Shown here: piece by piece, positions 2,276 through 27,206 of the stretch | How positions within the stretch are numbered: position 1 is the first letter of the stretch | Layout: every line of letters begins with the position of its first letter | Assembly (NCBI GenBank): GCA_031257945.1 | Contig: JAIRNU010000078.1 | Coordinates: 1 to 30,680 of the forward strand | Length of the DNA stretch: 30,680 bases | Origin: Holosporales bacterium | GTDB taxonomy: Bacteria > Pseudomonadota > Alphaproteobacteria > BNTO01 | Direction of reading: 5' to 3' | Made by a program: the position numbers and the translations under genes | The notes under the pieces: generated by a model | Database searches by the model: none | Told to the model about the DNA's origin: nothing | The model's input: the letters and a program-made list of their open reading frames with translations, nothing else

Positions 2276-2362
2276 AAGTATTTCATTACCCAAAAAAGGA
2301 AAGAACGGTTAATTTGTAATATATATCATTAAAAAGTCAAGTATTACCTTTAGGCTGCTTAG

Positions 2363-5504: not shown

Positions 5505-8500
5505 CTAGTATCGCAGGGTAAATAACGCGCGATCTAAAAGAGAACCGAAGTTAGAAACGATTTTTGTTTGCTGTAAGAAAGTATCCTTTTCGGTTAGGGA
5601 CTTCCCGCGGTCATCCATAATTGGCAAACCATGTTTATCAAATTTTGTTCGGTAAAGGAGGTTTATCACGTTTTGTCCGTCCTCTGTTGTGGTCATTTTT
5701 CCTACTAAATCCAGGAGGTCTGCAGAAAAAATTTGTTTATCTATTGTTTGGATAAAATAAAACAAAAGAGTAAAGTTATTTAAAAGGTGTTTTATTATGC
5801 TGTGAAGTGTTCTAAAACTATCGATAACTTTCGCGTGAGTGCAAATTTCGCAGCCCTCCTCTATTTGCTGCAAGTCATCCAATTTTGAGGAGATGGTCGC
5901 GATGTTAACATCCGTTTCGAACATATATAATGGAAGTAATGGGATGCAGTTTCCTTCTGAGTCAACGGTGTCAAAATCTGGGAGCGCTGAAAGTTTGATA
6001 TCAAGGAGTTCGTGTGTTGGGTGGATGTTTGGTGCCCACTTCGCAACGCCCTTAATCAATGAAATAATCGATAAAGACAGGCCGTCTATAGCGCTAGACA
6101 ACGTCGTTGGGGGAGGGCTTTGTGCATCTGGATTAGCTGAATCATTAGGATTGCCTGGAATGAATCTTTCTAACGTAGCGGCAAGCATTTCATCAAACGG
6201 CGTGTTGGCGAGGCGTTCTGCAAGTTGATCGCTAACGCAAGAATGCCAATCCCCCGCTAATAATTCTTCTGTGAATTGCTTTAATCTCACAATACTTTGT
6301 AAAAATTTAATAATAAACACTTGGTATTGCTCTTTTGTGCAATCGTTGTCATTAGTAATATTGTCGGCAAGCAACCTTATCGTAGAGGAAAGGCTATTGA
6401 TGGCAGATATTAGTTTGAGATCGCACGGTGGACGGTGCAGTACGCTTACTATGGCGTCGAACTTTCTTTTCAAAAAGTGTACTTCTTCGGCTAATGCGGT
6501 AAAAGTCGCCCCACTATACATTACATTATCGTCTGCTATATTTAGCAGCGAATCGTATATCCCATTTATATTATTGGAAATGTGTATTGCTTGGGTATAT
6601 GTTTCTTCCGAAAAAGCAGGCCTTACAAAGGCGACTTCGTCTCTAAGCCAAATAAAAACCTCCGCTAAAACGGTAATTTGTTCCCTCATAGAGTTAAGAT
6701 TGGTTTTGTATAATGCTGCTGCGTTTTGGTATTGAGGCGTGTCGTTGCCATTCCAATAATCCTCAGGTATATGGTCGAACAAAAGTGCGAATTCTAGCGT
6801 TTCCTTGGCTAGCCCAAGGAAAGCCTCGTCTAACAGGCTGGCAGCAGGGGGGGCTTCTTGCGTGCTATCCAATAATTCAGCAATATTATTGGTGTATTGC
6901 CTCCATATAGTAAGTATATCGGTGAATGGTATGCTTACCAATTGCTCTTCAAATAATTGAGCTGGATCGTCGAGGGATGCCATTACTTCAACGGCTTTTG
7001 TGAATTTTCTTAAGTGCTCAAGGATTGCGCTAACACTGTTTGCTTTTTTGATTCCCTGACTTCGAGAGAAAATATTCAGGAGTTTTATGAAAGTATTGAC
7101 GATGGAATTATTCCCTGAATAGATACCCTGTATTAGCTCTTCCTCAAAATGGAAATCAAACAGGATCCGATTATAGCAAATACTTTTTTCCTTCATCATT
7201 TGCGCAAAATTTTGGATATTCAAGGAAGTATTGTTGAGTGCAGATATAATAGATGATATTGCGGTTAATGTATCGCTGTGGGATCCATTTATTTCGATAC
7301 TTGATACTTTTGCGACAAAATTAAGCAATACTGTGTTTATATTCGCGTGGCTTGAGCATATTGAAGATAAGATTTGTTCATACGAAATTGCCTCCTTGAT
7401 GTCTTCTTCTTGGGGCAGGGCAGGGGGGATGCCGAATTCCGCAAAGAAATTAGCAGCAGATAAATAGATATTGTTTTGAAGGACTTCGTTTATGCTGTCT
7501 ATATATGATATTAGCTCGCTGCTCTGGCAGAATACTTCGAAAGAGGCGGCTGGCAAGGAGTTATACTTGGAAAAAAGAGGAACGAAGAGGCTATTTAATA
7601 ACTCGATACTGTTGCTTATTTCAAGAATATTGGAGGTATGCGTCCCGTAGATTATATCGGCTGGCTGTATACTTATGTTATTTACGTTTTCTACAATCGA
7701 ACTAAGCGCGTTGAATATCCATGCTGTTTTTTGAAGTTTCGTGTACAGCCCGTGGCAACAAAATTCCTTCAGTGCGTCGTTTTTGACGGCTATACACGAG
7801 CGAATCAGCCTCAGAATAGCATTTGCGATATTTTGCATCGATGCATTAAAATCCTTTTTTACGCAATTAGCGCATAGTAATTCTTTATCGGCTGGAAGTA
7901 TAAACGTAATTAGTGTGTTGTAGATGTTCTGGCACGACAGTATTAATGCATTTAACGCAATAGACGTTTGTTCAAAATTTTGTAAAGAGCACGCTATTGT
8001 TGGCGCCGCTGTTTCAAATGAGAGCGATAAATCGTCAATAATATAGGAAATTTTGTTTAAAAACCACGGGAATTCCTGGCAAGAAAAATCAAAAGGTTCT
8101 TGCTGTTGCAGGCTAGGCTTTGGGATGCTAGTATTTATTAGCAATTCTTCACAATCATCTTTAAATACTTGTAGTGTTTGTGCCAGCGTAATAATTTGCT
8201 CATTTATATACTTGATTCGGCAGTATTCTTCGGTTTGGGGAACATGGTTTCTCGCGTCTTCCAATGTTATTAAATCTGTTGTTATTTTATTTATATTTTT
8301 AGTTATAATGTCCGCGATATTAATAATTAAACCAGAATTATTTTGTGCTTCATGGTTTAATATTTCACCAATAAACATTTGTGCGGCGGCTAATTGCTCT
8401 TGGGCTTGAAAGAGGTGAGTAAAAGATGACAAACAGCAATCTTCCCCGATACGCGTACTTATTTCTAAAAATTCGTCTGCTAGTTTTTGGTACATATCTT

Positions 8501-11500
8501 TTAATTGCCATAAAACCACTCTAATCCCCCTGTTTTCAGCGCATAGGCAATCGTCTCGACAGCACGGTAGGCACGTATCGCATTCCCGGCATACCGCAAA
8601 TTTTTCGCAAAAGAAGCCCTCTTTCCACTTATCATACGCGCCAAGGATACTTTCAGATACATCAGCAAAAGTTTCTGATAGGCCCTTTATTTTTGCAAGG
8701 AAGTCCGATGGCGCGGTAAGCCTTTTTTCATATGTGTTTTGCATCAACCCGTGCAGTGCCGCGTAGAGGTCTTGATGTGATGACAACGTATTAGCGAAGG
8801 TTTGCACAGCTGTTGCGTACGTCATTTCGTCTGTGGCTAATGGTTTGTATACATTGAAAATAGCGGAATTTGGGAAGTATATAGTCAAAATGTCAGCTAT
8901 TTCGCTGGCTTTTACTATGATTTTCGAAATGCATTCGGCAGCTTGCTCCATATGGCATTCACCATTTATTTCGATATCCTCTATTTGCTTAATAACTGTC
9001 ACGATTCCGGGGGTAATCCCGTCCTTTTGTGTAAACAACGATATAAAGGAGTCAATTGGCAACGAGCATATATTGCTCCAATTAACTGTTACGTATTCAG
9101 AAATTCCATTTATTACTTCGGCTATATACGATGTGTAGTAATTATAATGATGCAATTGCTTTACTGTATCTAAATAGCAGTATCTGGCAAGAATTTCTTG
9201 CAAAGATTCTACACCTATTTGCGCGTTATCAATTAATTCATTCCAATTTTCTGGAATGGCGCCGGTTATACTGTCTTGCTCTGCCTCACAGTAAAAGCAA
9301 AATAACTCCATTTTCGTGGCAAGAATATCGGCTATTAATGTCTTTAACACTGGGAAAATAGGTTTTATTTGTGTCAAAAAGTTGAATAATTGGCGAACGG
9401 CAGGGAAGTGAAATTTCTTATGTTCCAATGCGGCGCATTGCCCGCAAATTGCGTCGTTAAATGCGGCGAGTTGCTTGAAACCTTCGCTTATTGCGCAAAA
9501 CAGCGTGGGGCAGCGGTATGTTGCAGGGTGAATAACGGAAGACTCCGCTGGGGGGTGAAACGCGGTTATTAGCTTATCGACAATGGTCTTTATTTTTAAT
9601 ACGTGTTCTATTTGCTCCACAGCTATGCAGTAACCATCGGATGTATCATCCCCATTGTTCTCTATATTTTCTTCTTGTTCTTGGGGGAATAATTCGTCGA
9701 TAAGCATCGATACCGCGGATACTGTTTCAAGCAGTAGCGCGCCAACAGTGGTTTCCCCTGAGGCAATGTCAATAATCTCATCGTAGCCTTTTATTTGTTC
9801 GGTCAAAATACTTGCCGAGTCCAATAATGTGAAAAGCGTGTATACAAATGTAGAGCAGCATGTCTTTTTTAATATAGTACTTTCTTGGATAAATAAATCT
9901 GGGATGCGTGTGATAGCCGTAAAGGCATCAGCTAAAAGGAACTCAATGCTATTTTTATTTTCGCGCATGCACTCTGTAGGGCTGTAATTAGCCTGCAGGG
10001 AATTTAATAGGTCAGTAAAAAGCGCAGCTAATGTTCCGAAGTACTCCGCGGATTCCGGGTGAAAGTCTTTGACTACGTAATTATCTGAAATATTAACGCT
10101 TTCTTGTATTAAATCTGCTAGTGTGTGCAAATCCGCATTAATCCTGCTGATTAATACTTCATTTGTAACTGTGGTGGTGGGGCCGGCGAAATCATCCGGT
10201 AAATATGTTGGAAGATCTTGGGCAAAAGCCCTCAGCGCCGCGTTTGTTTTTAAATAAATATTGTGCAGATTATCGTCGATATCAGTCAATCCGATGTATT
10301 CAGCGAAATTTATTACGCGGTGCGGGCACACATATTCTTCATTTAAAGAATTTATATTGCTTAATTTTGTGATAGATTGAGGAAAATTTGTTTCCAAAAT
10401 ACTAGTTATTTCTCGCATAGTATTTATAAACGTCGAATGTTCCTCTTCTTCCAAATTTTTGACGAATTGGTTTTTAGTAAATGCAATGGTTTTATTGATT
10501 GCCCTTATGCTGTTATCAATATCAAATAACTTATCGACTTTATGCGGGACGGCTGCGGTTTTTTGCAAAACATCTATAAATTCCGTGTGCGAGTTCAGGA
10601 GGCCCTCCATGGCATCTTTAAGCGGTATTGGATCAGGGACCATATCGTTTTCGCGGATATTATTGAGTATCTCGCGGAATAGTTGCGCCGCTTCTTCCCA
10701 TTTATAGTGAACAACTGTATGGTTAAATAAATCTGTAGTTTGGGCGATGTAAAAAGAATTATTGAGTGATTTTATTATTTCGATTAGCGAGGCATAATCT
10801 CTTTCAATTAGCTGGCCATTGTATGTTTGTGCAGGATAGCCAGCTTTTGGCGGCAAATATACCCCTAATGCCATAAGTTTATCCGTCAATTGTTCCACGC
10901 TATTACTTAAGATTTTATTAACAGAAGCAATAATTTGTGTTTTTTCTGGAAGTGAGGCCGCCGGCTCTGCGGGAACATCGCGGAGGATTTGCTTATACAT
11001 AAGTATTACATTATCGATAAAATTCGCGAACAATTGCACTGTTGTTTTTCTTGCGTCACTTGCGTCTATTCTTAAAAACAAATCCATCTGTTGCGCGAGC
11101 GTTTCAACTAATGCTACAAACTCGTGAAACTCTTTAGCGTATTTTTTGTAAAGCCTATCCTCCATTTGTTGAATAATTTTAAATAATTCTTCTTGAGTTT
11201 TACTTAAAGACGAAATAATCTCGTCGTAATAATATGTATTAGAATTGCAATTTTGGCACACTTTATTGGCAAAAACAGAACAAAAGCGCGCGACTGTATT
11301 CTGAAATTCTTCCACTCCGTAAAGCAACGTTACCAGGCTGTTTTGCAAATTTTGCTGGCTTTCGTAGATGTTTGACGCTTCGGCGTATTGCGTAAAAGCA
11401 TTCAGCTTACCAACAATATCGGCAGCTTTGGCATCAATTAAATCTAAGATTGCAGATACCTTTTGGCAAAAGAGCTCTTCAGAAACGATATGCGCAGTTC

Positions 11501-17500: not shown

Positions 17501-20500
17501 GCTTTTTTAGTGTATTCAGGAACGTCCTAAAAGAAAAAGATATTCCCTGCCAGTAGCGTACTTCAAGATCAGCCATTATTGGCTCGATTACTTCAACGAT
17601 ATTGTCCATTTCGTTGCCAATATCTCGCAGGATATATTTATCAAGAGAATCAGTTCTTGCGCAGAATTGTATTTGACTATTAGAAAGGTCGTGTAGCGCA
17701 GCTTTCACCGCTAACAATGCATCCCTTAATGACGCGAACGAATCTAATACTTCTTTAGAGTATGTTTGGTCAATATCCATGTTTTGTCGAATGTGTTGTT
17801 CGAGTATCGCAAAGTAACCATCCGAAGGATTACTTAATTCCCGCATATTTTGTAAAATTTTCGTAAGATAAACCGCAATTTTTTCATGCTGGACCGCGTG
17901 CAGGGCATAGCTACTATAATCTGACGGCAAAGACCAAGCCGTTGCCTCGATAATATCGCTGCAAGATGCGATGGCATTATAACAATCAGGGAGACTGTCG
18001 TTTATATCCGAAAGCATTGGGGCAATGCTTTCCGCTCTATCCCGGAAAAGGCCGGCGGGAGCATGCTGAAAAGCGGAATCTATAGATGAGATATAGCTAC
18101 CGATATTAGTTATTTCCTCCGAAATTTTGGTTATTTGCTCGGCGATTAATTGCTTTTGTGGCGATGGCGTCGCACCAATATCATCATCGGTTTCTGGTAA
18201 CGATGCCACGCACACGTTAATTTTTAATAAAATATTTCGTACAGCGGTGGCAACGGTTTCTCCGCATGGCGGGTTGTTGTTGTTTGCAATAACTTGCCCT
18301 GCCAAAGAAACAATATCTTTTAATATTTTCTCAATATTTATATATACACCGTTGAATATATCAGTCTCTTGTATGGCATTAATAATATATTGTACAAATA
18401 TCCCACTAGTAATTATTAAATCAGAAACTATAGGATGTGGCGCTAATTCTGTTTGCGCAAACCAATGGCACAGTTTAGAAAAATTTGAAAGTATGTCCTC
18501 GCTCACCTCTATAATTTTGGCCAAATTGATTTCGTATTGCTCTTGCGTAATTTGCGCTAAAAAGCTTCTGTTTGTTACTTTTTCTACGTCAAAAAGGGGT
18601 TCTTTCGTCCAAATTGCGGCTTTTATTAACGTCGTAATTTTTTGTATAGAGGAAATAACATTGCCGTTAACTTTTTGCGCAACGATTTTTTTGATGCTGT
18701 CAGCGAGGCTATAAACAAATTTATCAATTTGTGGAGTATTCGTTGGGTCAATAATATCGTTGTCTAATAAAAATTGCAGTACTTGGGCGAGTTCTTCTAA
18801 TGGTCCAAGTAATTTATACTGTGCCTCTACTTTCTTTTTAATTTTAAATTCTACATAAGTTTCAGCTAACAAACCCAGTGCATCAGGCTTTATCGCTTGT
18901 AATAAATCCTGTTGGTGTGCGTGCAATGGTTTCTCGCAAAAAACGCACTGGGAAAGGTGCTCCAAACCGTCGCTGTTTTGCAAAAAATCTTGCAACTTTG
19001 TTTTCATTATATGTATGCGTGTGTGGGCCTCGCTTAACTGCTGATGTATTTCTTCCGAATAAATTAGGTATTCGCCTTTCCAATAAATCGCAAGGTCATT
19101 AATCGATTCAAAAATTGCATTGAGTTTTGCAGTTATACTTGTTAATGCAAATGTTACTCTTTCGCTAGCGGGGATTTTATCGTAGTCCTTTTTGAACGGC
19201 TCTATATCAATGTTGTAACACAGCAATATAGTTCTGATCGCATTGCAAAGGTCCTCTGTTTCACTTTCTATTTGGTCAATACTTTGTTCAACAGTAGGCA
19301 GGGACAGTGCATCTGGTATGGTTTTTAAAATACTGTTTATACTAGATATATACTCGTTAATAGGTAGCGCTGGAATAGCTCCGTTCTTTTGTAGATTTAC
19401 TATTTGCTTAAAATATATTGCTAAATTAGTAATATTTTCCTCTATATTAATTATTTTTGCAGTATATATACGGCACGCCTCATTATCCAAAAGCTTTTGC
19501 ACAAAAAGGCCGATGTTCTGCCGTATTTGCCCGCAAATTTCGCGAATTCCCCCCAGAATGGCAGCTTCTTCAGCTTTGCGGAATGCGTTGCACTCAGGGC
19601 ACTTCGCATAAAGTATAGTTGAGTCTTTCATTATATCATTAATGAAAGAGGAAATGTGCTGTAGAGAGTCTACTGCATTTATACTGTAAAGATTTGTATT
19701 TATATTAGCGAAAATTGTGGCGATATGCTGTTCAAGTAAAACACAAATACTTTCAAGAATTTCTTTAATTAAATATAAATCCCCCATTCGTTGAGTACAG
19801 GAAAATTTGAATGGAGGGATAGTATTAGCCGCTTCAGCCGTCTCAGCAACCTCAGCTGTTCTAATTAAACGGTCCAAAAATTCGCTTATTCCAGGAAGAT
19901 CTAACGGGGCGTGGCCTTGGGGTTGTAGTAATAGCTGGTTCTCTAACAGCGCCATTACCGTTTCATCCGCCGCGGCCCGCAGTATATCTTCAAAGCGCAA
20001 TAATTTTTCCAATATATTGTGTGTATATAGCGCAGTATTCGCGCAGCATTTATCGCTAATACTTTCGGCGATTTGCTTTATGGCAAAGGAAAGTTCTTTG
20101 GTAATATCGTGCAACTCCTGCAAAGCAAGTGTTTCTTGTATCGAAATGCTTTGGTTTGTACATTTCTGGCATGAGTACTTGGATGTAATGTCCTCTAAAA
20201 AGGGCAGGCTATTATCCGCGCCTAAGAAACTATTCGCGATATTTACAATTAAGTTTTTGTATTCCGTGTTTACCGCGGCGTCGAAATCTTTTTCTAGAAT
20301 ATCTGCAATATCGTACAGTTGTGCCGTTATCCCCTTTAATAATACGGTATACTTTCGCAAGTATACGTCTTTGTAATCCTCAAGCGGCACACTGAAATAA
20401 TCGAAATCGAAATATGGTGCCGCGAAGTCTATATCGTCGTATTTTTGGGCGATAGCGTAGATCGCAGCACCAACGGCGGCAATTTTCTCTTCCGTTGGTC

Positions 20501-23500
20501 GGGTGCGCAGTGTGTCGAGCAAAGTATTAAGACAGCCAAAAGACTTCGCCAACACTTCTTTTGCGGACTTTGTACCTAAGTTCGATTTTATTAAACTTAA
20601 GGCATACGATATTGTATTTGTGACTTGAAGCGCCCGCGCGAAAGACATTTTTTGTTGATTTTCGCAAGTATCCGGAAGTCGAGCGTTTTTATCCGTATCA
20701 TCCGATATTTCGTTTAAAATTGCGATTAATTGTGGGGAGTTAATATTACTTTCCGCACATAGTATTTCGTGATCATATATCGTCCCCGCCAATGAATGCA
20801 ATACGGACGATGCCTCAGAAAGGGCTCCGCGAATGCCGGCGTTCTTATGATTCTGTCCGCTAATAAATGCTGTATAGTACGATTGTTTTAACGCACCGCT
20901 TAATGTACTTAAACAATGGTACAAGTTCAGGCATTCGTTGCAACTCTCCTCTATACTTTCAAACACGTCAGGGGGAGCAAGCGCAATCGCCCAAGCCCAT
21001 ATATCCTCTATCCACGCCAGCACGTCCCCCATTTCTTGCTGAAGACTTGCGTTTTCTACATCTGTACTAAACGCCTCAAATAAACGCGCATTGTGAAGGA
21101 GTATTCTTGCCGTTTGTACAATACACCTTTCCACGGTCGCCCCAGCATCCAACAAATTTGCCTCTTGGATTTGCTGGGCAATTGCTTTAGCTATGTTAGC
21201 GCACCGCCGGAAGATATTCTTCTTTGCCGTTGTGCAATGGCGCTCCTCTCGAGGATACAAAGCGTCATACAGGTAGAGGGCTTGCGCGGCCATTCCCTTA
21301 ATCTTTTCCTGAATTTCCCTTATTATAAGTATTTGTTCTTGCGAATAGCTATTCACCGGGCCCTCTATACCAATTTCTATATTAGCTATTCCGTAAAGTT
21401 CCGCACTTATGCGTTGGATCGCCTCCCGCTCCTCCATCGAAAAATTGTAATTATTTATAATAGTATTATTGCAAATATGTACAATTTTATCCCCGATATT
21501 TGTTATTTGTTGTAGTATCCTTCTCAAATATACATTATCTGTATTCTCGTTTTGTGGTATTGACGGCGGAGCATGAGGGACAGGATCAACATCGTAGCAA
21601 TCCTTCCAATAATTAAGTTCTTTAAAAATATCATCCAAGTTTATCCCCGTTTCGCTACTTACCCCTGCCTCAAGAGCTCTTTTTATATTTTCAATACCAG
21701 ATAAAATATAAGAAATATTAATGCTTTGCTCCGATTGTATTAACCGATCAACTATATTCTCTATTTTGTACAATACCGCCGTTATATCATATAGTCTTTG
21801 CCTTATGAATGGTGGGGTTTGCGACTGCTCTGCCAGTACTTTCAACAAAGTCTCCCAATATGTTGAAGTATCAATTATATCGCTACGAAACTGCTCCGGA
21901 TTTCTTATTTCTAATTGTATGCCGCTGTGGTAATTTAGCATATATTTAAAATTCGTAAAGTAATCGGCGTACTCTTTCCAAAAAATTTTGTAAATATTGG
22001 CCTTTTCGGCCAGACCTGCGATCCCCTGACAATCAAGCAGTTCGAGCCCCTCCGAAAATGAAGTCACAATATACTGTACAATCGAATTATACAAAGATGC
22101 GGCTTGTATTAAATTTGGCGCAATAGTTTGTAGATTTTCAATACTTGGGGGAATTGGGACGAACGCGCCACCCTCTCCAATAATTTCGCGTAAATCCATC
22201 CAAAGTTGTGCGATTCTCGCATTGCTCAGCCATGCCTCCGGCTTTTGCAAAAAATTTGAGAGAACCCCGTGCCACCGGTCAAAAATATCCAGGGCCCCAG
22301 CCTTATCTGGATTATTGTAAATTAAATCCCCGACAGCCTGCGTTGTGCAAAGCAAAATTTGCGGAAGCCTTATGCACGCCTCTACCTGATAATAATTTTC
22401 GAAAGAATCCCAAGTCGCCTGCAAAAAATCGAAAGCATCCCGTAAGCCGCTATAAGCGGTTTGCAGTGTGACGGACAAAATATCGCTTCCACTGTTATTT
22501 TCGCAAGACGCCGCTGCATTGCGCAAGACATCCATTACGCCTTCCGCGAAATCGCATATTACTTGCGCCTTAAAGTCTATTGGCTTCCAAAGGTCCGACG
22601 GCGGGGCCGTTGCATTATACGCAAAAGTATTAATATTAGCGGATATTTTCTGAATATACTGCATAACTTTATGACGGATAACTTCTACTAGTTCGTGCGC
22701 ATTTATTTCACTATATCGCAAAATATCTGTAACTTTTTTGCTGCGCCTGTAGTCCCCCCAAACGGCCCCCAATACTTCGTTTACAGTAGAAAATATATCA
22801 CTATAATTATCATCCACTTTTATTTTTTGTGTTATTCCTTGGACAACGCTGTTATAGGAAGTAAATATTTTGTCATGTATATCGGGTAACTCGTGCACAA
22901 CCCGCTTCGTAATGGCTTCGATATTGGCAACAATATCCAAAAACGGCAAAGCCAAAGCCGCGGCTGCCTCGCAATCCTTGTAAGCATTAATATTTTTATC
23001 TACCGTAAGTATTGCTGTTTGTATTTCTCGCAAAAGGTATATCTTTTTCGCCAAAAAGTCTTTCTTAATTTCAATATTTTTTATTGGGCTTTGTAGCAAA
23101 TCCACATACTGTTCCGCCGCATCAATTACATTTTGCATTCCAGAACAAAACGTTTTGAAAAACGAAGAGAGGGCGGGCAGATCGTCTTTGGCAATACTGT
23201 TAAAAAAACCAATATTCCCCTCTAGTATTTTGACATCATTTAAAATCCCGTTTATTAACATAATAATTTGCGGGAATATATTTTCTAATGTAAGCCCTTC
23301 CACGGAAATATCTGCGAAAGTATCTATACCATTTTCCAAAATATCCCATAAATTTTTAACAAGTACCGTAAATCCTGCGAAAAAATCACTGGCCAAATCT
23401 ACGTGCGTATTTAATTCTCTTATTACAAGTAATAATTGGTTATACTCGTTCTGCGAATTATATAATGGCGCCGAACACAAGGCGTGTATTTCATTTGATA

Positions 23501-24878
23501 ATAAATACAAATACTTATACATATTTAAAAATTGTTCGGTGGGCTCCTCTTCTGTCCCCCCAACCTTTGCTATCTCTGCTGCTATAAGACCTTCAATGAT
23601 GCCTAATTTTTCCAAAATAGCATTGACGACGTCTGTTTCTGAGATCGCAAGGCCAGACAAAAATTGGTTGAAATACTCCTGTATGCTATCTGTATCTGCA
23701 GGCGATGATAGTGCTGCCATTGCGTCAGACGGCGGCGTGGTGGGGATAAGCAGGCCGTATATTGATGTATAAAAGTCCGCAGCGTCTTTCGTCCCGGCTT
23801 TGGTTTTGTATGTGGCCATTAGGGTATTTATCGCGTCAAATTCGTCTTTAATATTATTGTAATTAGTTGTAGAGATCCTTATAATAGCACTACTGGACGC
23901 TAAAAAAACCAATTGGTCCCACAAAGAACCACTAGCGCTAGCAGAAGTGGTACTACTCCCGAAAATAGTTTTCCAGCACTCATCGCTTGCCAAAATATTC
24001 TTTGTCGCTGCCACTATATCAGCAGTTATCCCAGTCCCGTCCTTATATTCATTTACTATCTTGTTAATAAGCACCGGGCTGAACCCCCTAGAGCCAACCT
24101 GCGTGATTGCATACAAAAGGGACCCTAATTCCGGACTTCCCGCCGCCTTTAATCGTGCGCAGATAGAGCCTGTTGTGCTTGCCGTGTCACCTGGCGTACC
24201 AAGAACAACTGAGTCAGTAATTTTAATTGGCGTTGCCCTAATAGTCGCCAGCACTTTGTTAATGAGACTGTGGTAGGTGTAAACGTCACTGTACATCTCA
24301 TTCACGTTGTTGAGTGCTCCAAGGTACCCCGCAGTGGTATTTGGAAACATTTTGTTATTAAGTACTGCATGATTAAGTAAAATTGATGTATTTACTCCCT
24401 GCGTGATCCCAAAAGTAGCAGCGTATGCTAAGCTTACTCCGGCAGAGAGGATGGTTTCCAAAGATGGGGCGGCTCCATTACTCCATCCTGTTAAATCAAA
24501 GTTGCTTGATCCATTGATATTTGACAACAGATTATATATCTTTTTGCTTTTACCAAATGCAGAAAATGTTCCCTCGTCATCTTTAATATCAGTTATGTTG
24601 CCGTTTGATACCCCTACTCTCACGAGTGTTGTCGTGCTCGGAGATTTACTCCATAAACCTGCAATATCAGTTTGAAGCGAGCGCGAACCTAAAGCGGTAG
24701 AGCTTCCTAAATATGTGGCACAAGTACCAATTGCTGGATTACTACCACTTTGTATTCGCTCCATAAAGGTTGATAAATCGGTGCTCCAGCACCCTATCAT
24801 TATCCACAAAAGGAAAACGAATGGACGCAGCGCAGCAAAAAAACATTGCTTAAAAAACAATTTTATTGTTAAAAGCAC
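5505..24878 (-). CDS. Giant (6457 aa) predicted alpha-helical protein with cysteine-anchored degenerate repeats; possibly exported
   Basis: Uninterrupted 19.4-kb ORF (GTG start). N-terminus with basic residues and a hydrophobic stretch ending MIGC. Amphipathic helical pattern throughout, with recurring CxxC...CC motifs. No named domain recognised. Confidence 0.93.
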   Translation of the reverse strand: MLLTIKLFFKQCFFAALRPFVFLLWIMIGCWSTDLSTFMERIQSGSNPAIGTCATYLGSSTALGSRSLQTDIAGLWSKSPSTTTLVRVGVSNGNITDIKDDEGTFSAFGKSKKIYNLLSNINGSSNFDLTGWSNGAAPSLETILSAGVSLAYAATFGITQGVNTSILLNHAVLNNKMFPNTTAGYLGALNNVNEMYSDVYTYHSLINKVLATIRATPIKITDSVVLGTPGDTASTTGSICARLKAAGSPELGSLLYAITQVGSRGFSPVLINKIVNEYKDGTGITADIVAATKNILASDECWKTIFGSSTTSASASGSLWDQLVFLASSSAIIRISTTNYNNIKDEFDAINTLMATYKTKAGTKDAADFYTSIYGLLIPTTPPSDAMAALSSPADTDSIQEYFNQFLSGLAISETDVVNAILEKLGIIEGLIAAEIAKVGGTEEEPTEQFLNMYKYLYLLSNEIHALCSAPLYNSQNEYNQLLLVIRELNTHVDLASDFFAGFTVLVKNLWDILENGIDTFADISVEGLTLENIFPQIIMLINGILNDVKILEGNIGFFNSIAKDDLPALSSFFKTFCSGMQNVIDAAEQYVDLLQSPIKNIEIKKDFLAKKIYLLREIQTAILTVDKNINAYKDCEAAAALALPFLDIVANIEAITKRVVHELPDIHDKIFTSYNSVVQGITQKIKVDDNYSDIFSTVNEVLGAVWGDYRRSKKVTDILRYSEINAHELVEVIRHKVMQYIQKISANINTFAYNATAPPSDLWKPIDFKAQVICDFAEGVMDVLRNAAASCENNSGSDILSVTLQTAYSGLRDAFDFLQATWDSFENYYQVEACIRLPQILLCTTQAVGDLIYNNPDKAGALDIFDRWHGVLSNFLQKPEAWLSNARIAQLWMDLREIIGEGGAFVPIPPSIENLQTIAPNLIQAASLYNSIVQYIVTSFSEGLELLDCQGIAGLAEKANIYKIFWKEYADYFTNFKYMLNYHSGIQLEIRNPEQFRSDIIDTSTYWETLLKVLAEQSQTPPFIRQRLYDITAVLYKIENIVDRLIQSEQSINISYILSGIENIKRALEAGVSSETGINLDDIFKELNYWKDCYDVDPVPHAPPSIPQNENTDNVYLRRILQQITNIGDKIVHICNNTIINNYNFSMEEREAIQRISAELYGIANIEIGIEGPVNSYSQEQILIIREIQEKIKGMAAQALYLYDALYPREERHCTTAKKNIFRRCANIAKAIAQQIQEANLLDAGATVERCIVQTARILLHNARLFEAFSTDVENASLQQEMGDVLAWIEDIWAWAIALAPPDVFESIEESCNECLNLYHCLSTLSGALKQSYYTAFISGQNHKNAGIRGALSEASSVLHSLAGTIYDHEILCAESNINSPQLIAILNEISDDTDKNARLPDTCENQQKMSFARALQVTNTISYALSLIKSNLGTKSAKEVLAKSFGCLNTLLDTLRTRPTEEKIAAVGAAIYAIAQKYDDIDFAAPYFDFDYFSVPLEDYKDVYLRKYTVLLKGITAQLYDIADILEKDFDAAVNTEYKNLIVNIANSFLGADNSLPFLEDITSKYSCQKCTNQSISIQETLALQELHDITKELSFAIKQIAESISDKCCANTALYTHNILEKLLRFEDILRAAADETVMALLENQLLLQPQGHAPLDLPGISEFLDRLIRTAEVAETAEAANTIPPFKFSCTQRMGDLYLIKEILESICVLLEQHIATIFANINTNLYSINAVDSLQHISSFINDIMKDSTILYAKCPECNAFRKAEEAAILGGIREICGQIRQNIGLFVQKLLDNEACRIYTAKIINIEENITNLAIYFKQIVNLQKNGAIPALPINEYISSINSILKTIPDALSLPTVEQSIDQIESETEDLCNAIRTILLCYNIDIEPFKKDYDKIPASERVTFALTSITAKLNAIFESINDLAIYWKGEYLIYSEEIHQQLSEAHTRIHIMKTKLQDFLQNSDGLEHLSQCVFCEKPLHAHQQDLLQAIKPDALGLLAETYVEFKIKKKVEAQYKLLGPLEELAQVLQFLLDNDIIDPTNTPQIDKFVYSLADSIKKIVAQKVNGNVISSIQKITTLIKAAIWTKEPLFDVEKVTNRSFLAQITQEQYEINLAKIIEVSEDILSNFSKLCHWFAQTELAPHPIVSDLIITSGIFVQYIINAIQETDIFNGVYINIEKILKDIVSLAGQVIANNNNPPCGETVATAVRNILLKINVCVASLPETDDDIGATPSPQKQLIAEQITKISEEITNIGSYISSIDSAFQHAPAGLFRDRAESIAPMLSDINDSLPDCYNAIASCSDIIEATAWSLPSDYSSYALHAVQHEKIAVYLTKILQNMRELSNPSDGYFAILEQHIRQNMDIDQTYSKEVLDSFASLRDALLAVKAALHDLSNSQIQFCARTDSLDKYILRDIGNEMDNIVEVIEPIMADLEVRYWQGISFSFRTFLNTLKKQISSCDQITTAIQNSSANIDDFNNKKVNNAVKYISDKIATFIADFKSIEIGDDSEDYHAALLAYAQIFDAAVTFEPELKDVVTDSFYGEWEEDNTALIADPPLFSEAVLCQDIALLPLIFEEYASALSSVVTELKNNAAKVVRNGEITSSLKAIAEQIENIESQALTPFLENIYTIIDAHNNGIVTYEDWIENYTSLHQALFLLYQQVMEIHDCYDASLCCASLVLTLQDIAIALTNTANNINYIITNPLHNTLDVNTILNNIAAAFDKESLEQYFDYIQTIYDEPISPTGKCKSDYINTALRSIVAVLNGTNATISDEEVPQVHQVEELTQADVFCLLVKEVNNNIVNAINAIYLEIKNTVHFVQSYGLTTPFNSSSFSAIDNIISTLDSVVAFLDNLIDKASPFGTFCQQCIDRADANADDFNDFFEKAIDAVSNVKVTFIFLKDSLAIFCCDKKDGAALGRICSGVLSCSEFISQLTALAFQSDTDMNDALLEFAAFLDTMSAPLFSALNHPAHSAQKSINLQKVAEIFEMFNFVSGSFVEILPYTPSIAAHYWDRIIEALAAHHVDAAIINEAIISHKHVITPENLSQIQAIALRLKGLAALFATATAPQSLLHNQAAFEEKSAKIKDEINKISDDFEDIFIALSQVNDISIILDSVTLLEEAAKKVETAAKTLSPFFVEDLDFGEPADTVRNELADLVGSGPDLETTQQELHTMSEYKNNPPLTGLSNALQGIVTAMSLCADHVLAITKSDPPPVYPLARAPEVAVSLTRIYKYTLYIADAINELANTLAGHDILRFHEEIVDLLSTLIGTLDFLQNQICDVALATSLVKIPNVHECSLILYSLARGINDIKLNISRVFNIIKHKEPSYEGHFHNEIAAIIEQLSIYTELIQHSTLSQAKTFFTNFAKTSLKLKTNTDILHESIAIEKHGKATEALRKQHIKILEEITDWAQNAFGEHAIANTTVPIFEDIHTESTDIRIRNALMEIAKRFTMLSDEWLLAPYKIDYDFININQIISENISNLLYNTANIQEAIHNFSTQLKHPTCCTETATIIDQIRTQLYFCAHSFAKIIPKAQQTLAAQQDADILFALDCITAELLNISTALSGKVDDFDCLDAAYSALLSSVKNSTTVINENLLCIEGVYGIPATQSLNLKAVENIDNCAKKEVFLYKIEQTLHKIRDICETLAYYVSPPIGVPIPYKKAFEDRVHNLQTAVNTVATAFALLKSKHITCESCNPVQIFASVNDMLQWTNSLEASFCTIKDTIKALEYSMLSEAVHNILQNNLNIQKLIGLFKITEILHAPELMPVITSLFDTWNNFFEQIGEGPQECGFPALVQFLRQIDESQKAFLHYMNLEKQVEFEQLPQVVFSEQQIKEDVEALQHNKTKDDALFNTILQDAIETGVSSDIVSKIFYKAFHLSRWAKIRFTYNVTPLEKEIAETLFPSEAIIDSWQKIGLAYGHNDACQKYLDQITAISSNYEGINSVMEEIILAAQQYSLDTECSENISGYIDNIKEIFQQICENSNKIIPRMESGNYQICFTEIDKDNYILDILQAIVSDSLRIMDEMNDIKNTFTINKDPPNEYQVQPGALAKNLANLDVDFYENIQSSWQGVNTVLAEQIDAMEYIKFLLINGEVCAIRGRPTETFKADTLDLLANVADGVQSSNSAIIEYENTIYSNLTYAVKKIISLFPIFSDIKLLLFRNNNINNTKACLSLIESELSTLLTHIESIKNIQYDRRNLFLELLKVGLVVQNITDLVQQYTQDNDKEPIIIEPVEKHRGDVQFFENSLFALQNALCSVDGAITVWKGVIQSENGTKRNERCFDQEILDVLSAIIATFSGMQSTYAQGDWNWFCSAEHFVALDQVFQSMVTGISAICDLLRHPTCCVARNEYLYSILSLLEQFGFGFDGAIPYLNIDQHIFEEGEIDEAINYINKAVCSLNIASHKLGKIQLQEDAHCNAPAIAPHMKKTCRFLYRATQALCNALLLIGEKQPGTAHIVSEELFCQKVSAILDLIDAKAADIVGKLNAFTQYAEASNIYESQQNLQNSLVTLLYGVEEFQNTVARFCSVFANKVCQNCNSNTYYYDEIISSLSKTQEELFKIIQQMEDRLYKKYAKEFHEFVALVETLAQQMDLFLRIDASDARKTTVQLFANFIDNVILMYKQILRDVPAEPAASLPEKTQIIASVNKILSNSVEQLTDKLMALGVYLPPKAGYPAQTYNGQLIERDYASLIEIIKSLNNSFYIAQTTDLFNHTVVHYKWEEAAQLFREILNNIRENDMVPDPIPLKDAMEGLLNSHTEFIDVLQKTAAVPHKVDKLFDIDNSIRAINKTIAFTKNQFVKNLEEEEHSTFINTMREITSILETNFPQSITKLSNINSLNEEYVCPHRVINFAEYIGLTDIDDNLHNIYLKTNAALRAFAQDLPTYLPDDFAGPTTTVTNEVLISRINADLHTLADLIQESVNISDNYVVKDFHPESAEYFGTLAALFTDLLNSLQANYSPTECMRENKNSIEFLLADAFTAITRIPDLFIQESTILKKTCCSTFVYTLFTLLDSASILTEQIKGYDEIIDIASGETTVGALLLETVSAVSMLIDELFPQEQEENIENNGDDTSDGYCIAVEQIEHVLKIKTIVDKLITAFHPPAESSVIHPATYRCPTLFCAISEGFKQLAAFNDAICGQCAALEHKKFHFPAVRQLFNFLTQIKPIFPVLKTLIADILATKMELFCFYCEAEQDSITGAIPENWNELIDNAQIGVESLQEILARYCYLDTVKQLHHYNYYTSYIAEVINGISEYVTVNWSNICSLPIDSFISLFTQKDGITPGIVTVIKQIEDIEINGECHMEQAAECISKIIVKASEIADILTIYFPNSAIFNVYKPLATDEMTYATAVQTFANTLSSHQDLYAALHGLMQNTYEKRLTAPSDFLAKIKGLSETFADVSESILGAYDKWKEGFFCEKFAVCRECDTCLPCCRDDCLCAENRGIRVVLWQLKDMYQKLADEFLEISTRIGEDCCLSSFTHLFQAQEQLAAAQMFIGEILNHEAQNNSGLIINIADIITKNINKITTDLITLEDARNHVPQTEEYCRIKYINEQIITLAQTLQVFKDDCEELLINTSIPKPSLQQQEPFDFSCQEFPWFLNKISYIIDDLSLSFETAAPTIACSLQNFEQTSIALNALILSCQNIYNTLITFILPADKELLCANCVKKDFNASMQNIANAILRLIRSCIAVKNDALKEFCCHGLYTKLQKTAWIFNALSSIVENVNNISIQPADIIYGTHTSNILEISNSIELLNSLFVPLFSKYNSLPAASFEVFCQSSELISYIDSINEVLQNNIYLSAANFFAEFGIPPALPQEEDIKEAISYEQILSSICSSHANINTVLLNFVAKVSSIEINGSHSDTLTAISSIISALNNTSLNIQNFAQMMKEKSICYNRILFDFHFEEELIQGIYSGNNSIVNTFIKLLNIFSRSQGIKKANSVSAILEHLRKFTKAVEVMASLDDPAQLFEEQLVSIPFTDILTIWRQYTNNIAELLDSTQEAPPAASLLDEAFLGLAKETLEFALLFDHIPEDYWNGNDTPQYQNAAALYKTNLNSMREQITVLAEVFIWLRDEVAFVRPAFSEETYTQAIHISNNINGIYDSLLNIADDNVMYSGATFTALAEEVHFLKRKFDAIVSVLHRPPCDLKLISAINSLSSTIRLLADNITNDNDCTKEQYQVFIIKFLQSIVRLKQFTEELLAGDWHSCVSDQLAERLANTPFDEMLAATLERFIPGNPNDSANPDAQSPPPTTLSSAIDGLSLSIISLIKGVAKWAPNIHPTHELLDIKLSALPDFDTVDSEGNCIPLLPLYMFETDVNIATISSKLDDLQQIEEGCEICTHAKVIDSFRTLHSIIKHLLNNFTLLFYFIQTIDKQIFSADLLDLVGKMTTTEDGQNVINLLYRTKFDKHGLPIMDDRGKSLTEKDTFLQQTKIVSNFGSLLDRALFTLRY

Positions 24879-24947
24879 TTTTACTATTAACTAAAACATC
24901 AGTACATATAAAAATGTATAAGTATTATATTTAAAAATAGTAAAGTT

Positions 24948-24976
24948 TTGCCATATTCCGCCAATTTATCTAACTT
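24948..24976 (+). promoter_or_regulatory. Candidate sigma70 promoter for the hcp-like pair
   Basis: TTGCCA-N17-TAACTT about 90 nt upstream of ATG 25069, in the AT-rich divergent region shared with the giant gene. Confidence 0.4.
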
Positions 24977-25068
24977 TTTTGTTTTTCCTCTAGAGCACTG
25001 CCAGTTTTTTATGACATTATTAGTAGGGAAGGGGGGAGTGATCGCGCTACCGATACAGTAGGCCTGGT

Positions 25069-25647
25069 ATGGACAATCCTATTAATTTGCGGATAGGGGG
25101 AATTTCATTCAAAGTCCCGATTTCGCGCAGCGGAAATGGCCTCCTATCGGCAACAGTATCGAGAACCCCAGAGTGGGTGATTATGTTCGATGGTGGGTTA
25201 ACCGCCAGCACGTTAGAAGAATACCCAGATTTCGTGGTATTACTTGGCTTTTTTTCAGAACAAAGCCGGTATGTGTCGGGCAATGTTAACGGCTCCATAT
25301 TCACTTCTGGAAGTGTTCAAGGCGGAGAATACATATTCATTCTACAAAACGGAGAGCACGGTCCAAAGCTTGAACAACAAATGTATAGCGGCAAAAACGT
25401 CCCGTGCGTCAGACTTATACGGTTAGGATGGTCAGAAGGCGCTTTATCTGTTCTGCAGACAATTACACTTACGGTAGTGCGTATTACTCGTTTCATGCAG
25501 AACATCCAATATATTGTGATTGTTGTACAGGCTGGTGCCCGGACTAACGATATTTCAGATTTTAACCAGGCTGATGGTGCTTGTGCGGGTCACAAGATAA
25601 GTACAGTAAATTATTCGGAAAATAAACTTGAGTTCGAGAGTCAATGA
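25069..25647 (+). CDS. hcp: Hcp-like (T6SS inner tube, TssD family) protein 1 with N-terminal extension
   Basis: Colinear by eye with P. aeruginosa Hcp1: GSVQ~GKVN, GPKLEQQMYSGKNVP~TPNLMMACSSGKHYP, TITLTVVRIT~IITLKEVLVS, FNQADGACAG~PQKADGAKDG, VNYSEN~WNIRQN. Confidence 0.75.
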   Translation: MDNPINLRIGGISFKVPISRSGNGLLSATVSRTPEWVIMFDGGLTASTLEEYPDFVVLLGFFSEQSRYVSGNVNGSIFTSGSVQGGEYIFILQNGEHGPKLEQQMYSGKNVPCVRLIRLGWSEGALSVLQTITLTVVRITRFMQNIQYIVIVVQAGARTNDISDFNQADGACAGHKISTVNYSENKLEFESQ

Positions 25648-26270
25648 TACTTAGTGATAACAAATCACAAGCCCAGGGGAACGGCCCGTACGAAATCGCT
25701 AATGTCCCAGGAATGGGGGATTTGAAGGTAATAGTTGTAAGCGAATCAACAAGCCAATTCTTCAACAATCCAAACGGGTCGAAATCGCCCTGGTGGATGG
25801 TTAGCATGAAAGCAGATAACAAAGAGGTGCTATCGTCTACTGTTACTGCCGCGCCGTATAAAGATTACACGGAATTATTTGGGTTTTACATAGAATCGTA
25901 CGTCGTTTTTTCATCAACAATTGCTAACAAACTGTTTGTATCGTCGATAATACATGAAGATTGTATTATCGTTATTCCAAATGCCGGTTATGTGGCGGAC
26001 CTGGAGCAAAAAATGCACTCTGGGGTATTGTTTGGCATGATTACGATTGTGTGCCTTGGGTGGATTAAGGGGACGTTGCAAGTGTACCATCGTATAACGT
26101 TTACTAATTCTTTTCTGGTTTCAATTATTCCTGACCTAGACCGCGCATTTGTTCGCTTTAGGGTTGTAAAGAAGAACCATACTTTTATTCCATTTTCTCA
26201 GGCCGGCGTAAAAGCGGGGCAGTCTATGTGCCTTATCGATTTGACGACTGATACGACGTCAGCTGGGTAG
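25644..26270 (+). CDS. hcp: Hcp-like protein 2, diverged paralog of the upstream gene
   Basis: ATGA overlap with the upstream gene. Shared motifs: LEQKMHSG/LEQQMYSG, LGWIKGTL/LGWSEGAL, ITFT/ITLT, LFGF/LLGF, FSQAGVKAGQ/FNQADGACAGH. Confidence 0.7.
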   Translation: MILSDNKSQAQGNGPYEIANVPGMGDLKVIVVSESTSQFFNNPNGSKSPWWMVSMKADNKEVLSSTVTAAPYKDYTELFGFYIESYVVFSSTIANKLFVSSIIHEDCIIVIPNAGYVADLEQKMHSGVLFGMITIVCLGWIKGTLQVYHRITFTNSFLVSIIPDLDRAFVRFRVVKKNHTFIPFSQAGVKAGQSMCLIDLTTDTTSAG

Positions 26271-26333
26271 TTTTGCCATCCTTTTTTCTTATTTGATATG
26301 ATCCGGTAGCGCAACGGGGTAGGGCAGGGCGGA

Positions 26334-27206
26334 TCATATTTTTCGAGCACATACAATACGCGAAAAATACTCTTGCCCGGATTTCGACAAGACAAAGATA
26401 ACTTTCCCATCAATGCGAAGGTCGACCTTCATGATATCACCAGACGATACTTTCCCTGCATCAATCAATACGGACAGTACATACAGCGCTTTCTCAATAC
26501 CATGATCGGGCAGCTTGACTTCCACGGAATTGCTGAGTTTTAAGTCCCACCGCCGGCCCTGAATAAATGCCATAGCCGCAAGCCGGCCTCTTATATTCTT
26601 GAACCGGTTAATGCTTTTCAATATTGCCGGAGCGTTCGTGCAAGCATTGCGCCCAGACAGTACTGGCAGCCCACGAAAGCATGCATCAATAGGGGCCTGG
26701 ATTTGCTCCCCATCTTGATCAACTAAAACAAATTGATTTTTGTCGTGGTACACGGCAATCGGCTGTCTTTCCGTTATGTAAATATGCAGCCGACCGCAAA
26801 GATTCCTGCATACGCTGGCTTGTTTGACCCACGCAAGCCGCTCTAGTTTGGTCTTCATAGTGCGTACATCGCACTCGAAAATTGGACTCCCGGCGCGAAC
26901 ATTTATAGCATCAAGGATATCACTCTGTTGCAAGCGGTATCGCCCTAGGACCGTTACATCCTTCAAAGTGAATCCTAGCCGCTGTGTCGCGGAATATATG
27001 GCCGTCTCGCAGCAACCAAACAATTTTTGCAAATTATCGTCGTAACTGAAGAAAACCAATCCCGCCAGGCAAAACGACATCAAAAAGCAGCGTCGCCCTG
27101 CTTTTGACGAAAAAAACCACAGCACAGCATGCAGCAAAAGCAAATACGCCTCTGCCGTTAGGCCCCGCTTTTGTGCGGATTTCTTGGACACAACCCTACG
27201 CGCCAC
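26334..27206 (-). CDS. ftsQ: Cell division protein FtsQ
   Basis: N-terminal TM segment, POTRA domain (GFTLKDVTVLG...WVKQASV...ITERQPIA), VLVDQDG, RRWDLKL, KVDLR. Confidence 0.93.
   Translation of the reverse strand: MARRVVSKKSAQKRGLTAEAYLLLLHAVLWFFSSKAGRRCFLMSFCLAGLVFFSYDDNLQKLFGCCETAIYSATQRLGFTLKDVTVLGRYRLQQSDILDAINVRAGSPIFECDVRTMKTKLERLAWVKQASVCRNLCGRLHIYITERQPIAVYHDKNQFVLVDQDGEQIQAPIDACFRGLPVLSGRNACTNAPAILKSINRFKNIRGRLAAMAFIQGRRWDLKLSNSVEVKLPDHGIEKALYVLSVLIDAGKVSSGDIMKVDLRIDGKVIFVLSKSGQEYFSRIVCARKI

What the first reader, a model, noticed from the sequence alone, without database searches (positions are those of the whole stretch)
5505..26270. Candidate undescribed system: 6457-aa helical repeat protein paired head-to-head with two Hcp-like tube genes
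Seen: a giant, almost wholly helical repeat protein and a translationally coupled pair of Hcp-like genes share a 190-bp divergent promoter region. No other T6SS gene (tssB/C, vgrG, baseplate) is in the window. Established: Hcp hexamers stack into the T6SS tube and chaperone lumenal cargo; canonical T6SS has no ruler protein, whereas phage tails and eCIS use helical tape measures at about 0.15 nm per residue; T6SS gene sets have been reported in Holosporales protist endosymbionts. Inference, three options: (a) a ruler or lumenal filament for an unusually long tube (about 1 micrometre if fully extended); (b) a giant Hcp-associated cargo or effector; (c) an exported surface or periplasmic filament co-regulated with a tube-like appendage. 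The signal-like N-terminus and many Cys favour (c) over a classic tape measure.
Basis: partly seen in the sequence, partly recalled or inferred. Interest (0 to 1): 0.85.

Follow-up and report, generated by a model that had tools for sequence, protein, structure and literature searches.

The report
Giant exported rod beside orphan Hcp pair
A termite-gut Holosporales-like endosymbiont carries a real 6457-residue, probably exported, all-helical protein next to two genuine but highly diverged Hcp (type VI secretion tube) genes; the neighbourhood is old but often broken in relatives, so the two are probably separate features rather than one new system.

Summary
The 6457-aa ORF is intact and is confirmed by a second assembler. 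The two overlapping small genes are true Hcp-family proteins by profile and by predicted fold.

The "system" reading is weak.
- The pair is one of about six or seven Hcp groups scattered among housekeeping genes. The core hcp sits beside tssB-tssC on another contig.
- The giant is a lineage-restricted family, found in 7 of 10 related genomes at 5700-7700 aa and about 20% identity.
- It matches nothing in Pfam, PHROGs or PDB.
- All six compared giants (five genomic orthologues and one metagenome homologue) have a signal-peptide-like N-terminus.
- It has a conserved N-terminal domain and a cysteine-anchored helical module (CxxC, about 36 residues, CC, about 75 residues, C) that recurs about every 230 residues.
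- This points to an envelope or surface rod made through Sec. It does not fit a tube ruler or Hcp cargo.

The head-to-head linkage recurs in three deep lineages, so it is probably ancestral. It is broken in at least seven other contexts where both genes survive. It is no better kept than ordinary neighbours: 57-69% of adjacent gene pairs are retained between G000 and G001.

The scan had already found the same giant family in another genome (e1-4271541). Its function is still only inferred.

The parts
5505..24878 (-). Giant gene, 6457 codons from GTG 24878. Alternative starts are TTG 24860 and ATG 24764. The product is about 717 kDa.
   Evidence: An independent assembler's contig is identical over 6500-26400. 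Collinear orthologues of 7315-7684 aa occur in G001, G003, G004, G005 and G008, and a 5718-aa one is P0158.
24789..24878 (-). Signal-peptide-like N-terminus (residues 1-30): basic residues, then an 11-residue hydrophobic core ending in I-G-C, a possible lipobox.
   Evidence: Hydropathy maximum is 2.68 at residues 20-30, with no other TM-like segment in the protein. The same type of segment is present in the five other compared giants. This is inferred, not tested with a signal-peptide predictor.
23079..24761 (-). Conserved N-terminal domain (about residues 40-600), richer in Ser/Thr/Asn/Gly, with invariant motifs such as GK..K, S.G and GS..Q.
   Evidence: Alignment A5 of six giant homologues. 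Its profile has no PDB hit below E 0.1 and no hit among 5.8 billion proteins. The profile recognises the truncated ORF in L109 at E 3e-38.
7476..20171 (-). Region with at least 11 copies of an approximately 130-residue cysteine-anchored helical module (CxxC, about 36 residues, CC, about 75 residues, C). The spacing is about 190-240 residues in the C-terminal third and wider upstream.
   Evidence: An iterative HMM converged on 54 modules in five giants, 11 of them here. Shuffled controls gave 0 hits and reversed controls gave 3 marginal hits. Cys autocorrelation reaches z up to 5.6. In orthologue alignment A4, 15 of the 28 invariant columns are Cys.
7179..9311 (-). Modelled fragment (residues 5190-5900, three repeat units): 22 helices, mostly 25-30 residues long, and no sheet.
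   Evidence: AF2 on A4 gave pLDDT 73.1 and pTM 0.48. Foldseek against PDB found no match at or below E 0.001; the best was E 0.05.
5520..5681 (-). Conserved C-terminal motif (residues 6400-6453).
   Evidence: 48% identity to the G004 orthologue over 54 residues, against about 20% elsewhere. A similar tail is seen in G001, G008 and P0158. Its role is unknown.
24879..25068 (.). Divergent intergenic region, 190 bp if the giant starts at the GTG.
   Evidence: There are no sigma-70-like or terminator-like sites. No motif is shared with the 511-bp G001 counterpart beyond chance.
25069..25647 (+). hcp paralog A (P0002, 192 aa), with no signal peptide.
   Evidence: It forms its own orthologue clade with 100/99 support, which includes the giant-linked G001 copy.
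25644..26270 (+). hcp paralog B (P0003, 208 aa). Its start overlaps the stop of paralog A by 4 nt.
   Evidence: It forms its own orthologue clade with 100/99 support.

Best explanation
There are two separate features that happen to be old neighbours.

(1) hcpA-hcpB is a tightly coupled, family-wide orthologous pair of diverged Hcp (TssD) paralogs. It is one of about six or seven Hcp groups in this roughly 1-Mb Holosporales-like endosymbiont genome. The T6SS core genes are scattered: tssB-tssC-hcp on C15, tssA on C65, tssK on C76, tssF on C57 and vgrG on C64. The pair is made in the cytoplasm. It most likely acts as specialised tube subunits or effector carriers of that T6SS (inferred).

(2) The giant gene encodes a lineage-specific, fast-evolving protein of about 0.7 MDa. 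I infer that it is taken across the inner membrane by Sec, using its N-terminal signal, which is lipoprotein-like in some species. I infer that it folds into a long chain of helical-bundle units. I also infer that the near-invariant cysteines staple these units by disulfide bonds in the oxidising envelope. The result would be a rod or filament in the periplasm or on the cell surface.

Shown here: the ORF, its orthologues, the repeats, the conserved cysteines, the helical model, the signal-like N-terminus and the Hcp fold.

Inferred: export, disulfide bonds, rod shape, location, and independence from the T6SS.
For: - Hcp identity.
- Multicopy Hcp groups, with the core copy next to tssBC.
- All orphan hcp copies sit among housekeeping genes.
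- T6SS core genes lie elsewhere in the genome.
- Giant orthologues are collinear at about 20% identity, against a 52.6% median for reciprocal best hits.
- A signal-like N-terminus is present in all six compared giants, and there is no other hydrophobic segment.
- The Hcp pair has no such segment.
- The cysteines are the main invariant residues.
- The modelled fragment is all-helical.
- A DsbA-like thioredoxin ORF is present in the genome.
- The giant's 5' neighbour is the atp operon in G003, tamB in G004 and an unknown 667-aa ORF in G005. G008's hcp pair lies between lspA and accC.
- Base rate of adjacency retention between G000 and G001 is 132/191, about 57% after correction. For divergent pairs it is 25/39.
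Against: - The head-to-head arrangement is found in three deep branches of the pair's tree: G000, G001 and L109. In G000 and G001 the outer flanks differ while the block survives. That is what a selected unit could also look like.
- No signal-peptide predictor, disulfide mapping or localisation data were available.
- DsbB was not found, though the genome is only 84% complete.
- The conserved cysteines could bind metal instead of forming disulfides.
- Only 11% of the giant was modelled, and pTM is only 0.48.
Confidence: 0.6

Rival explanations
1. The giant and the Hcp pair form one co-regulated module. The exported giant would be an envelope or surface filament that works with the T6SS, for example as a tether, a track or an envelope conduit. 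It would be expressed from a shared divergent control region.
For: The divergent arrangement is probably ancestral. It is retained in three deep lineages with different outer flanks. The published T6SS of this group is called non-standard, with apparently missing parts (PMC11909080). The IcmF-related domain was not found here.
Against: The linkage is lost at least three times while both genes are kept, as in G003 and G008. It is no better retained than average neighbours. There is no shared intergenic motif and no promoter-like site. Other hcp paralogs sit next to unrelated housekeeping genes.
Confidence: 0.17
2. The giant is a cytoplasmic or inner-membrane-anchored protein. Its CxxC, CC and C sites would bind zinc or iron, and the N-terminal hydrophobic segment would be an uncleaved anchor or would not be translated at all.
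For: A public gene call starts at M39, downstream of the hydrophobic segment. No Shine-Dalgarno sequence is evident before the GTG or TTG starts. DsbB was not found. CxxC motifs are common metal ligands (general knowledge).
Against: The hydrophobic segment, preceded by basic residues, is conserved in all six compared giants. In five of them it follows an ATG. The cysteines sit at helix ends tens of residues apart, not in compact knuckles. There is no Pfam metal-binding domain.
Confidence: 0.1
3. The giant is a T6SS substrate or effector that the neighbouring Hcp pair carries or chaperones.
For: Orphan hcp genes often lie beside their cognate effectors (general T6SS knowledge). The linkage is seen in three lineages. 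The giant evolves fast, as host-facing proteins do.
Against: Hcp-lumen cargo is small, whereas this protein is about 717 kDa. It carries a Sec-type N-terminus. It is divergent from the pair rather than downstream in the operon. It has no PAAR, Rhs, MIX, FIX or toxin domain. The linkage is frequently broken.
Confidence: 0.07
4. The giant is a ruler or tape measure, or a lumenal filament, for an unusually long tube.
For: It is long and helical. Its length varies between species from 5718 to 7684 aa.
Against: It matches no PHROG or Pfam tape-measure family. It is not in a tail or eCIS cluster. Its Sec-type N-terminus would remove it from the cytoplasm, where T6SS tubes assemble. It folds into roughly 25-30-residue helices packed as bundles, not one extended helix.
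Confidence: 0.02

Closest known systems
Hcp / TssD, the inner-tube protein of type VI secretion systems (Pfam PF05638; e.g. PDB 1y12, 4w64, 3he1)
   Same: The predicted fold and a family-level sequence profile match solved Hcp structures. One paralog follows tssB-tssC, as in the published Holosporales layout [tssB-tssC-hcp] (PMC8163844).
   Different: Neither window protein reaches the Pfam threshold. The Hcp core starts about 35-40 residues into the family profile, so these proteins carry an N-terminal extension. There are six or seven paralog groups in a 1-Mb genome, and this pair lies away from any T6SS gene.
Ebh, the giant cell-wall-associated rod protein of Staphylococcus aureus (comparison from general knowledge)
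   Same: Both are very large and have an N-terminal export signal. Both are tandem helical-bundle repeats that would form a long rod.
   Different: Ebh is from a Gram-positive organism and is built of FIVAR/GA modules that Pfam recognises. No such hit is found here. Ebh has no cysteine ladder and has a C-terminal membrane anchor. There is no sequence relationship.
Disulfide-stapled helical repeat proteins: Helicobacter cysteine-rich proteins (Sel1-like repeats), and the chlamydial cysteine-rich envelope proteins OmcA/OmcB as a functional analogue
   Same: They are exported proteins whose conserved cysteines are thought to cross-link helices or stiffen the envelope of host-associated bacteria.
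   Different: The repeat unit here is about 130-230 residues, not 36. There is no Sel1 or OmcB Pfam match. The protein is 10-20 times larger.
Phage and eCIS tape-measure proteins
   Same: They are long and mostly helical, and their length varies between relatives.
   Different: There is no sequence match, no tail-gene context, a signal-like N-terminus, and bundle-forming short helices.
Scan finding e1-4271541: a 7574-residue exported helical protein with a CxxC/CC cysteine ladder in a Holosporales-like symbiont
   Same: It has the same module and periodicity, and evidently belongs to the same family. I re-derived these features independently.
   Different: That note concerned the protein alone, on other DNA. 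The new points here are the Hcp neighbourhood and its evolutionary history.

Membership tests
Hcp / TssD (T6SS inner tube) | Hcp beta-barrel fold | tested here: met
   The AF2 model of P0003 has only Hcp structures in its top 50 Foldseek PDB hits: E 1.8e-7 to 4e-4, TM up to 0.74 on the target. P0002 was not modelled, but it is a paralog (E 5e-14).
Hcp / TssD (T6SS inner tube) | Sequence match to the family model | tested here: inconclusive
   P0002 and P0003 alone have no PF05638 hit. The family profile A2 hits solved Hcp chains at E 1.7e-8, and 23 of 94 members hit PF05638.
Hcp / TssD (T6SS inner tube) | A T6SS sheath and baseplate are present in the same genome | tested here: met
   tssB/tssC, tssA (19), tssK (93), tssF (95) and vgrG (96) were found. 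The IcmF-related domain was not found in this 84%-complete genome (94). None of these genes is in the window.
Hcp / TssD (T6SS inner tube) | Assembly into hexameric rings and stacked tubes | not testable with these tools
   No multimer prediction or experiment was available.
Phage / eCIS tape-measure protein | Sequence similarity to tape-measure families | tested here: not met
   No PHROG hit and no Pfam hit.
Phage / eCIS tape-measure protein | Encoded inside a tail or contractile-injection gene cluster, and assembled in the cytoplasm | tested here: not met
   The neighbours are housekeeping genes and the hcp pair only. A signal-like N-terminus is present.
Hcp-dependent T6SS cargo effector | Small enough for the Hcp lumen, no Sec signal, encoded downstream of its hcp | tested here: not met
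   The protein is about 717 kDa, has a signal-like N-terminus, and is divergently oriented.
VgrG/PAAR-loaded T6SS effector | PAAR, Rhs, MIX, FIX, DUF4123-adaptor or toxin domain | tested here: not met
   There is no Pfam or NCBIfam domain anywhere in the giant.
Giant exported helical-repeat rod proteins (Ebh-like, functional class) | N-terminal export signal | tested here: inconclusive
   A basic n-region plus an 11-15-residue hydrophobic core is present in all six compared giants. No dedicated predictor was run and no cleavage was shown. The start codon in this genome is uncertain.
Giant exported helical-repeat rod proteins (Ebh-like, functional class) | Tandem helical-bundle repeats | tested here: met
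   At least 11 modules per protein and an all-helix model of three units.
Giant exported helical-repeat rod proteins (Ebh-like, functional class) | Homology to FIVAR/GA or another named repeat | tested here: not met
   No Pfam hit, no PDB fold match, and nothing in the ESM Atlas.

The most novel reading that the evidence does not exclude
The divergent hcpA-hcpB / giant arrangement is an ancestral functional unit of this endosymbiont lineage. In this reading, a megadalton, disulfide-stapled helical rod is exported by Sec and cooperates in the envelope or outside the cell with a non-standard T6SS. It might act as a tether to host structures, or as an envelope component replacing parts this lineage seems to lack.
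Probability: 0.15. Interest if true: 0.85.

Novelty: new variant of a known kind. Interest (0 to 1): 0.48.

Why it matters
Holosporales-like bacteria are widespread obligate symbionts of protists, and how they interact with their hosts is largely unknown.

- **The giant gene.** These roughly 1-Mb genomes spend about 2% of their DNA on a single intact 19-23-kb gene. It is kept open across at least five genera while its sequence drifts to about 20% identity. Its function is therefore probably important to the lifestyle, and it may be a major envelope or host-contact structure.
- **The Hcp genes.** A recent review states that the Holosporineae T6SS apparently lacks an inner-tube gene (PMC11909080). 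Here every one of the 10 genomes of the family carries 4-8 diverged Hcp-family copies, including one beside tssBC. That resolves the apparent gap. It also suggests an unusually elaborate set of Hcp carriers for such small genomes.

The proposed giant-Hcp system would be remarkable if real, but the present evidence does not favour it.

Tried and rejected
- Pfam, NCBIfam and PHROGs on the whole giant found nothing significant.
- phmmer of the small proteins against PDB found nothing. A family profile was needed.
- The ESM Atlas, tried on two parts of the giant, returned no usable features.
- Foldseek of the giant fragment gave only generic helical bundles, best E 0.05.
- The N-terminal domain profile found nothing significant in PDB or among 5.8 billion proteins.
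- Self-BLAST of the giant found no repeats. An iterative HMM was needed.
- The search for related loci with alignment A1 failed for lack of conserved stretches. Alignment A3 gave one Holosporales MAG contig.
- I asked whether the ORFs beside the pair in L001, G002, G003, G007, G008 and G009 are decayed giant fragments. They are not.
- I looked for a conserved regulatory motif in the divergent spacer and found none beyond chance.
- No RNA runs were found, so co-expression is untested.
- P0158's contig could not be fetched, because the protein exceeds the tool's length limit.
- The giant-genes preprint (10.1101/2023.11.21.568195) does not cover this family.
Full report
**Source and setting**

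The window is a whole 30,680-bp contig (C66) of a 1.04-Mb assembly. The assembly has 110 contigs and is 84% complete. The nearest named record is a Holosporales MAG, and the DNA comes from a termite-gut metagenome. The GTDB order holding it contains one family of 10 species genomes, each 0.8-1.3 Mb.

**Observation**

The giant ORF at 5505-24878 (-) is open for 6457 codons. It is by far the longest ORF in the genome; the next is 2060 aa. A contig built by another assembler from run X1 covers 6500-26400 without a single difference. The gene and its junction with the small genes are therefore not an assembly artefact.

The small genes are at 25069-25647 and 25644-26270. They overlap by 4 nt and are paralogs at E 5e-14. 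The rest of the window holds fabD, prfB, ftsQ, L25, a BspA-type LRR protein and a hydrolase, and no T6SS gene.

**The small genes are Hcp**

Neither protein reaches Pfam or NCBIfam on its own, and phmmer against PDB finds nothing. A full-database profile search found 208 cluster representatives. A 94-member profile then hit solved Hcp chains at E 1.7e-8 to 1e-4. 23 of the 94 members hit PF05638. The AF2 model of P0003 (pLDDT 68.8) finds only Hcp structures in its top 50 PDB matches.

The genome has no canonical PF05638 hit at all. It does have these T6SS genes:
- tssB-tssC, followed directly by a family member, on C15
- tssA
- tssK
- tssF
- vgrG

This is the scattered layout published for Holosporales (PMC8163844). 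A review states that the inner-tube gene seems to be missing in this group (PMC11909080). It is not missing here.

**The Hcp family is multicopy**

There are 7 copies in this genome and 4-8 in each of the nine other family genomes. A tree resolves well-supported groups:
- a slowly evolving core hcp beside tssBC
- the P0002 clade
- the P0003 clade
- a second tandem pair
- two singletons

All orphan copies in this genome lie among housekeeping genes such as priA, surA, ptsI, tpiA and mur ligase.

**The giant**

Collinear orthologues of 7315-7684 aa exist in G001, G003, G004, G005 and G008, and fragments exist in G009. One more homologue of 5718 aa was found among 5.8 billion proteins.

Identity between the giants is about 20% over thousands of residues. 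The median for reciprocal best hits between G000 and G001 is 52.6%.

No Pfam, NCBIfam, PHROG, PDB or Atlas relative was found.

All six compared giants begin with basic residues followed by an 11-15-residue hydrophobic core. They have no other hydrophobic segment. G004 has a canonical L-I-S-C lipobox, and this genome has I-G-C at the same place. In this genome only GTG or TTG starts precede that segment, which explains why a public gene call begins at M39.

Residues about 40-600 form a conserved domain. The last 54 residues are also conserved.

An iterative HMM converged on a 130-residue module: CxxC, about 36 residues, CC, about 75 residues, C. It is present 8-12 times per giant. Shuffled controls gave none and reversed controls gave three marginal hits. 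Cys autocorrelation supports the periodicity. In an orthologue alignment at about 20% identity, 15 of the 28 invariant columns are cysteines. The AF2 model of three units is entirely helical.

The same family was noted earlier by this scan on other DNA (e1-4271541).

**Is it one system?**

The head-to-head arrangement recurs in two other places:
- In the closed genome G001, the pair is 511 bp from the giant's start.
- In a Logan contig (L109), a truncated ORF divergent from the pair matches the giant's N-terminal profile at E 3e-38.

On a tree of the concatenated pair, these three cases lie on separate deep branches. The arrangement is therefore probably ancestral.

It is broken elsewhere:
- The giant's 5' neighbour is the atp operon in G003.
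- It is tamB in G004, and an unknown ORF in G005.
- The pair lies between lspA and accC in G008.
- It lies between a histidine kinase and serS in G003.
- It lies beside other unrelated genes in G002, G007, L001 and L110.
- No giant remnants lie beside these pairs.

Overall, the pair's upstream side is visible in about 10 contexts and the giant is there in 3.

Ordinary adjacent orthologue pairs of G000 remain adjacent in G001 in 132 of 191 cases, about 57% after correcting for partial sampling. For divergent pairs the figure is 25 of 39. Shared adjacency in this family is therefore the default and not a sign of function.

The spacer shows no promoter-like site and no conserved motif.

The Hcp proteins lack export signals and the giant has one, so they are made for different compartments.

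**Conclusion**

The components are real and individually interesting. The giant is most likely a Sec-exported, cysteine-stapled helical rod of the envelope or surface. The ruler and cargo readings are disfavoured. A functional tie to the Hcp pair remains possible, at about 15-20%, but it has no positive support beyond an old neighbourhood that is often lost.

Noticed in passing
G000 contigs C15:7005-7568, C18:1771-2977, C2:15613-16242, C100:9342-10151, plus window 25069-26270: There are seven diverged Hcp-family genes in a 1.04-Mb genome, and 4-8 in every genome of the family. A 2025 review says the Holosporineae T6SS apparently lacks the inner-tube gene. The Hcp core starts about 35-40 residues into the family profile, so the family carries an N-terminal extension.
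   Followed up: partly
G001:C1:778458-788717 (+): A second large ORF of 3420 aa in the closed relative genome carries two weak copies of the giant's cysteine module (E 6e-7). It may be a smaller paralog. No such paralog is found in G000.
   Followed up: no
window 24764-24878: A public gene call for the giant (6419 aa) starts at the ATG of residue 39, so it drops the conserved signal-like segment. Upstream only GTG or TTG starts are available, and there is no clear ribosome-binding site.
   Followed up: partly
L028 (G000:C15) 14862-16598 (-): A T4-type large terminase gene (Terminase_6N and 6C) lies on the same contig as tssB-tssC-hcp. It may be a gene-transfer-agent or prophage remnant, as reported for protist endosymbionts.
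   Followed up: no
window 28422-29423; L028 1850-3577; L065 193-1410: There are several BspA-type leucine-rich-repeat (LRR_5) proteins in this small genome. One lies on the tssBC contig and another lies next to the second hcp pair.
   Followed up: no
window 356-1210 (-) and 1436-2293 (-): Two ORFs of about 285 aa have no Pfam or NCBIfam match. A first-stage note reads the first one as a Rab-like pseudo-GTPase.
   Followed up: no
L001 8090-9304 (+): In one related metagenome contig, a tssA (ImpA_N) gene lies about 600 bp downstream of the hcp pair. This is the only case seen of this pair lying near a T6SS core gene.
   Followed up: partly
L036 3303-6845 (G004:C30): In G004 the giant gene directly follows tamB on the same strand, and a surA-like gene lies nearby. 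This is an envelope-biogenesis neighbourhood, which fits an envelope role, but it is a single case.
   Followed up: no
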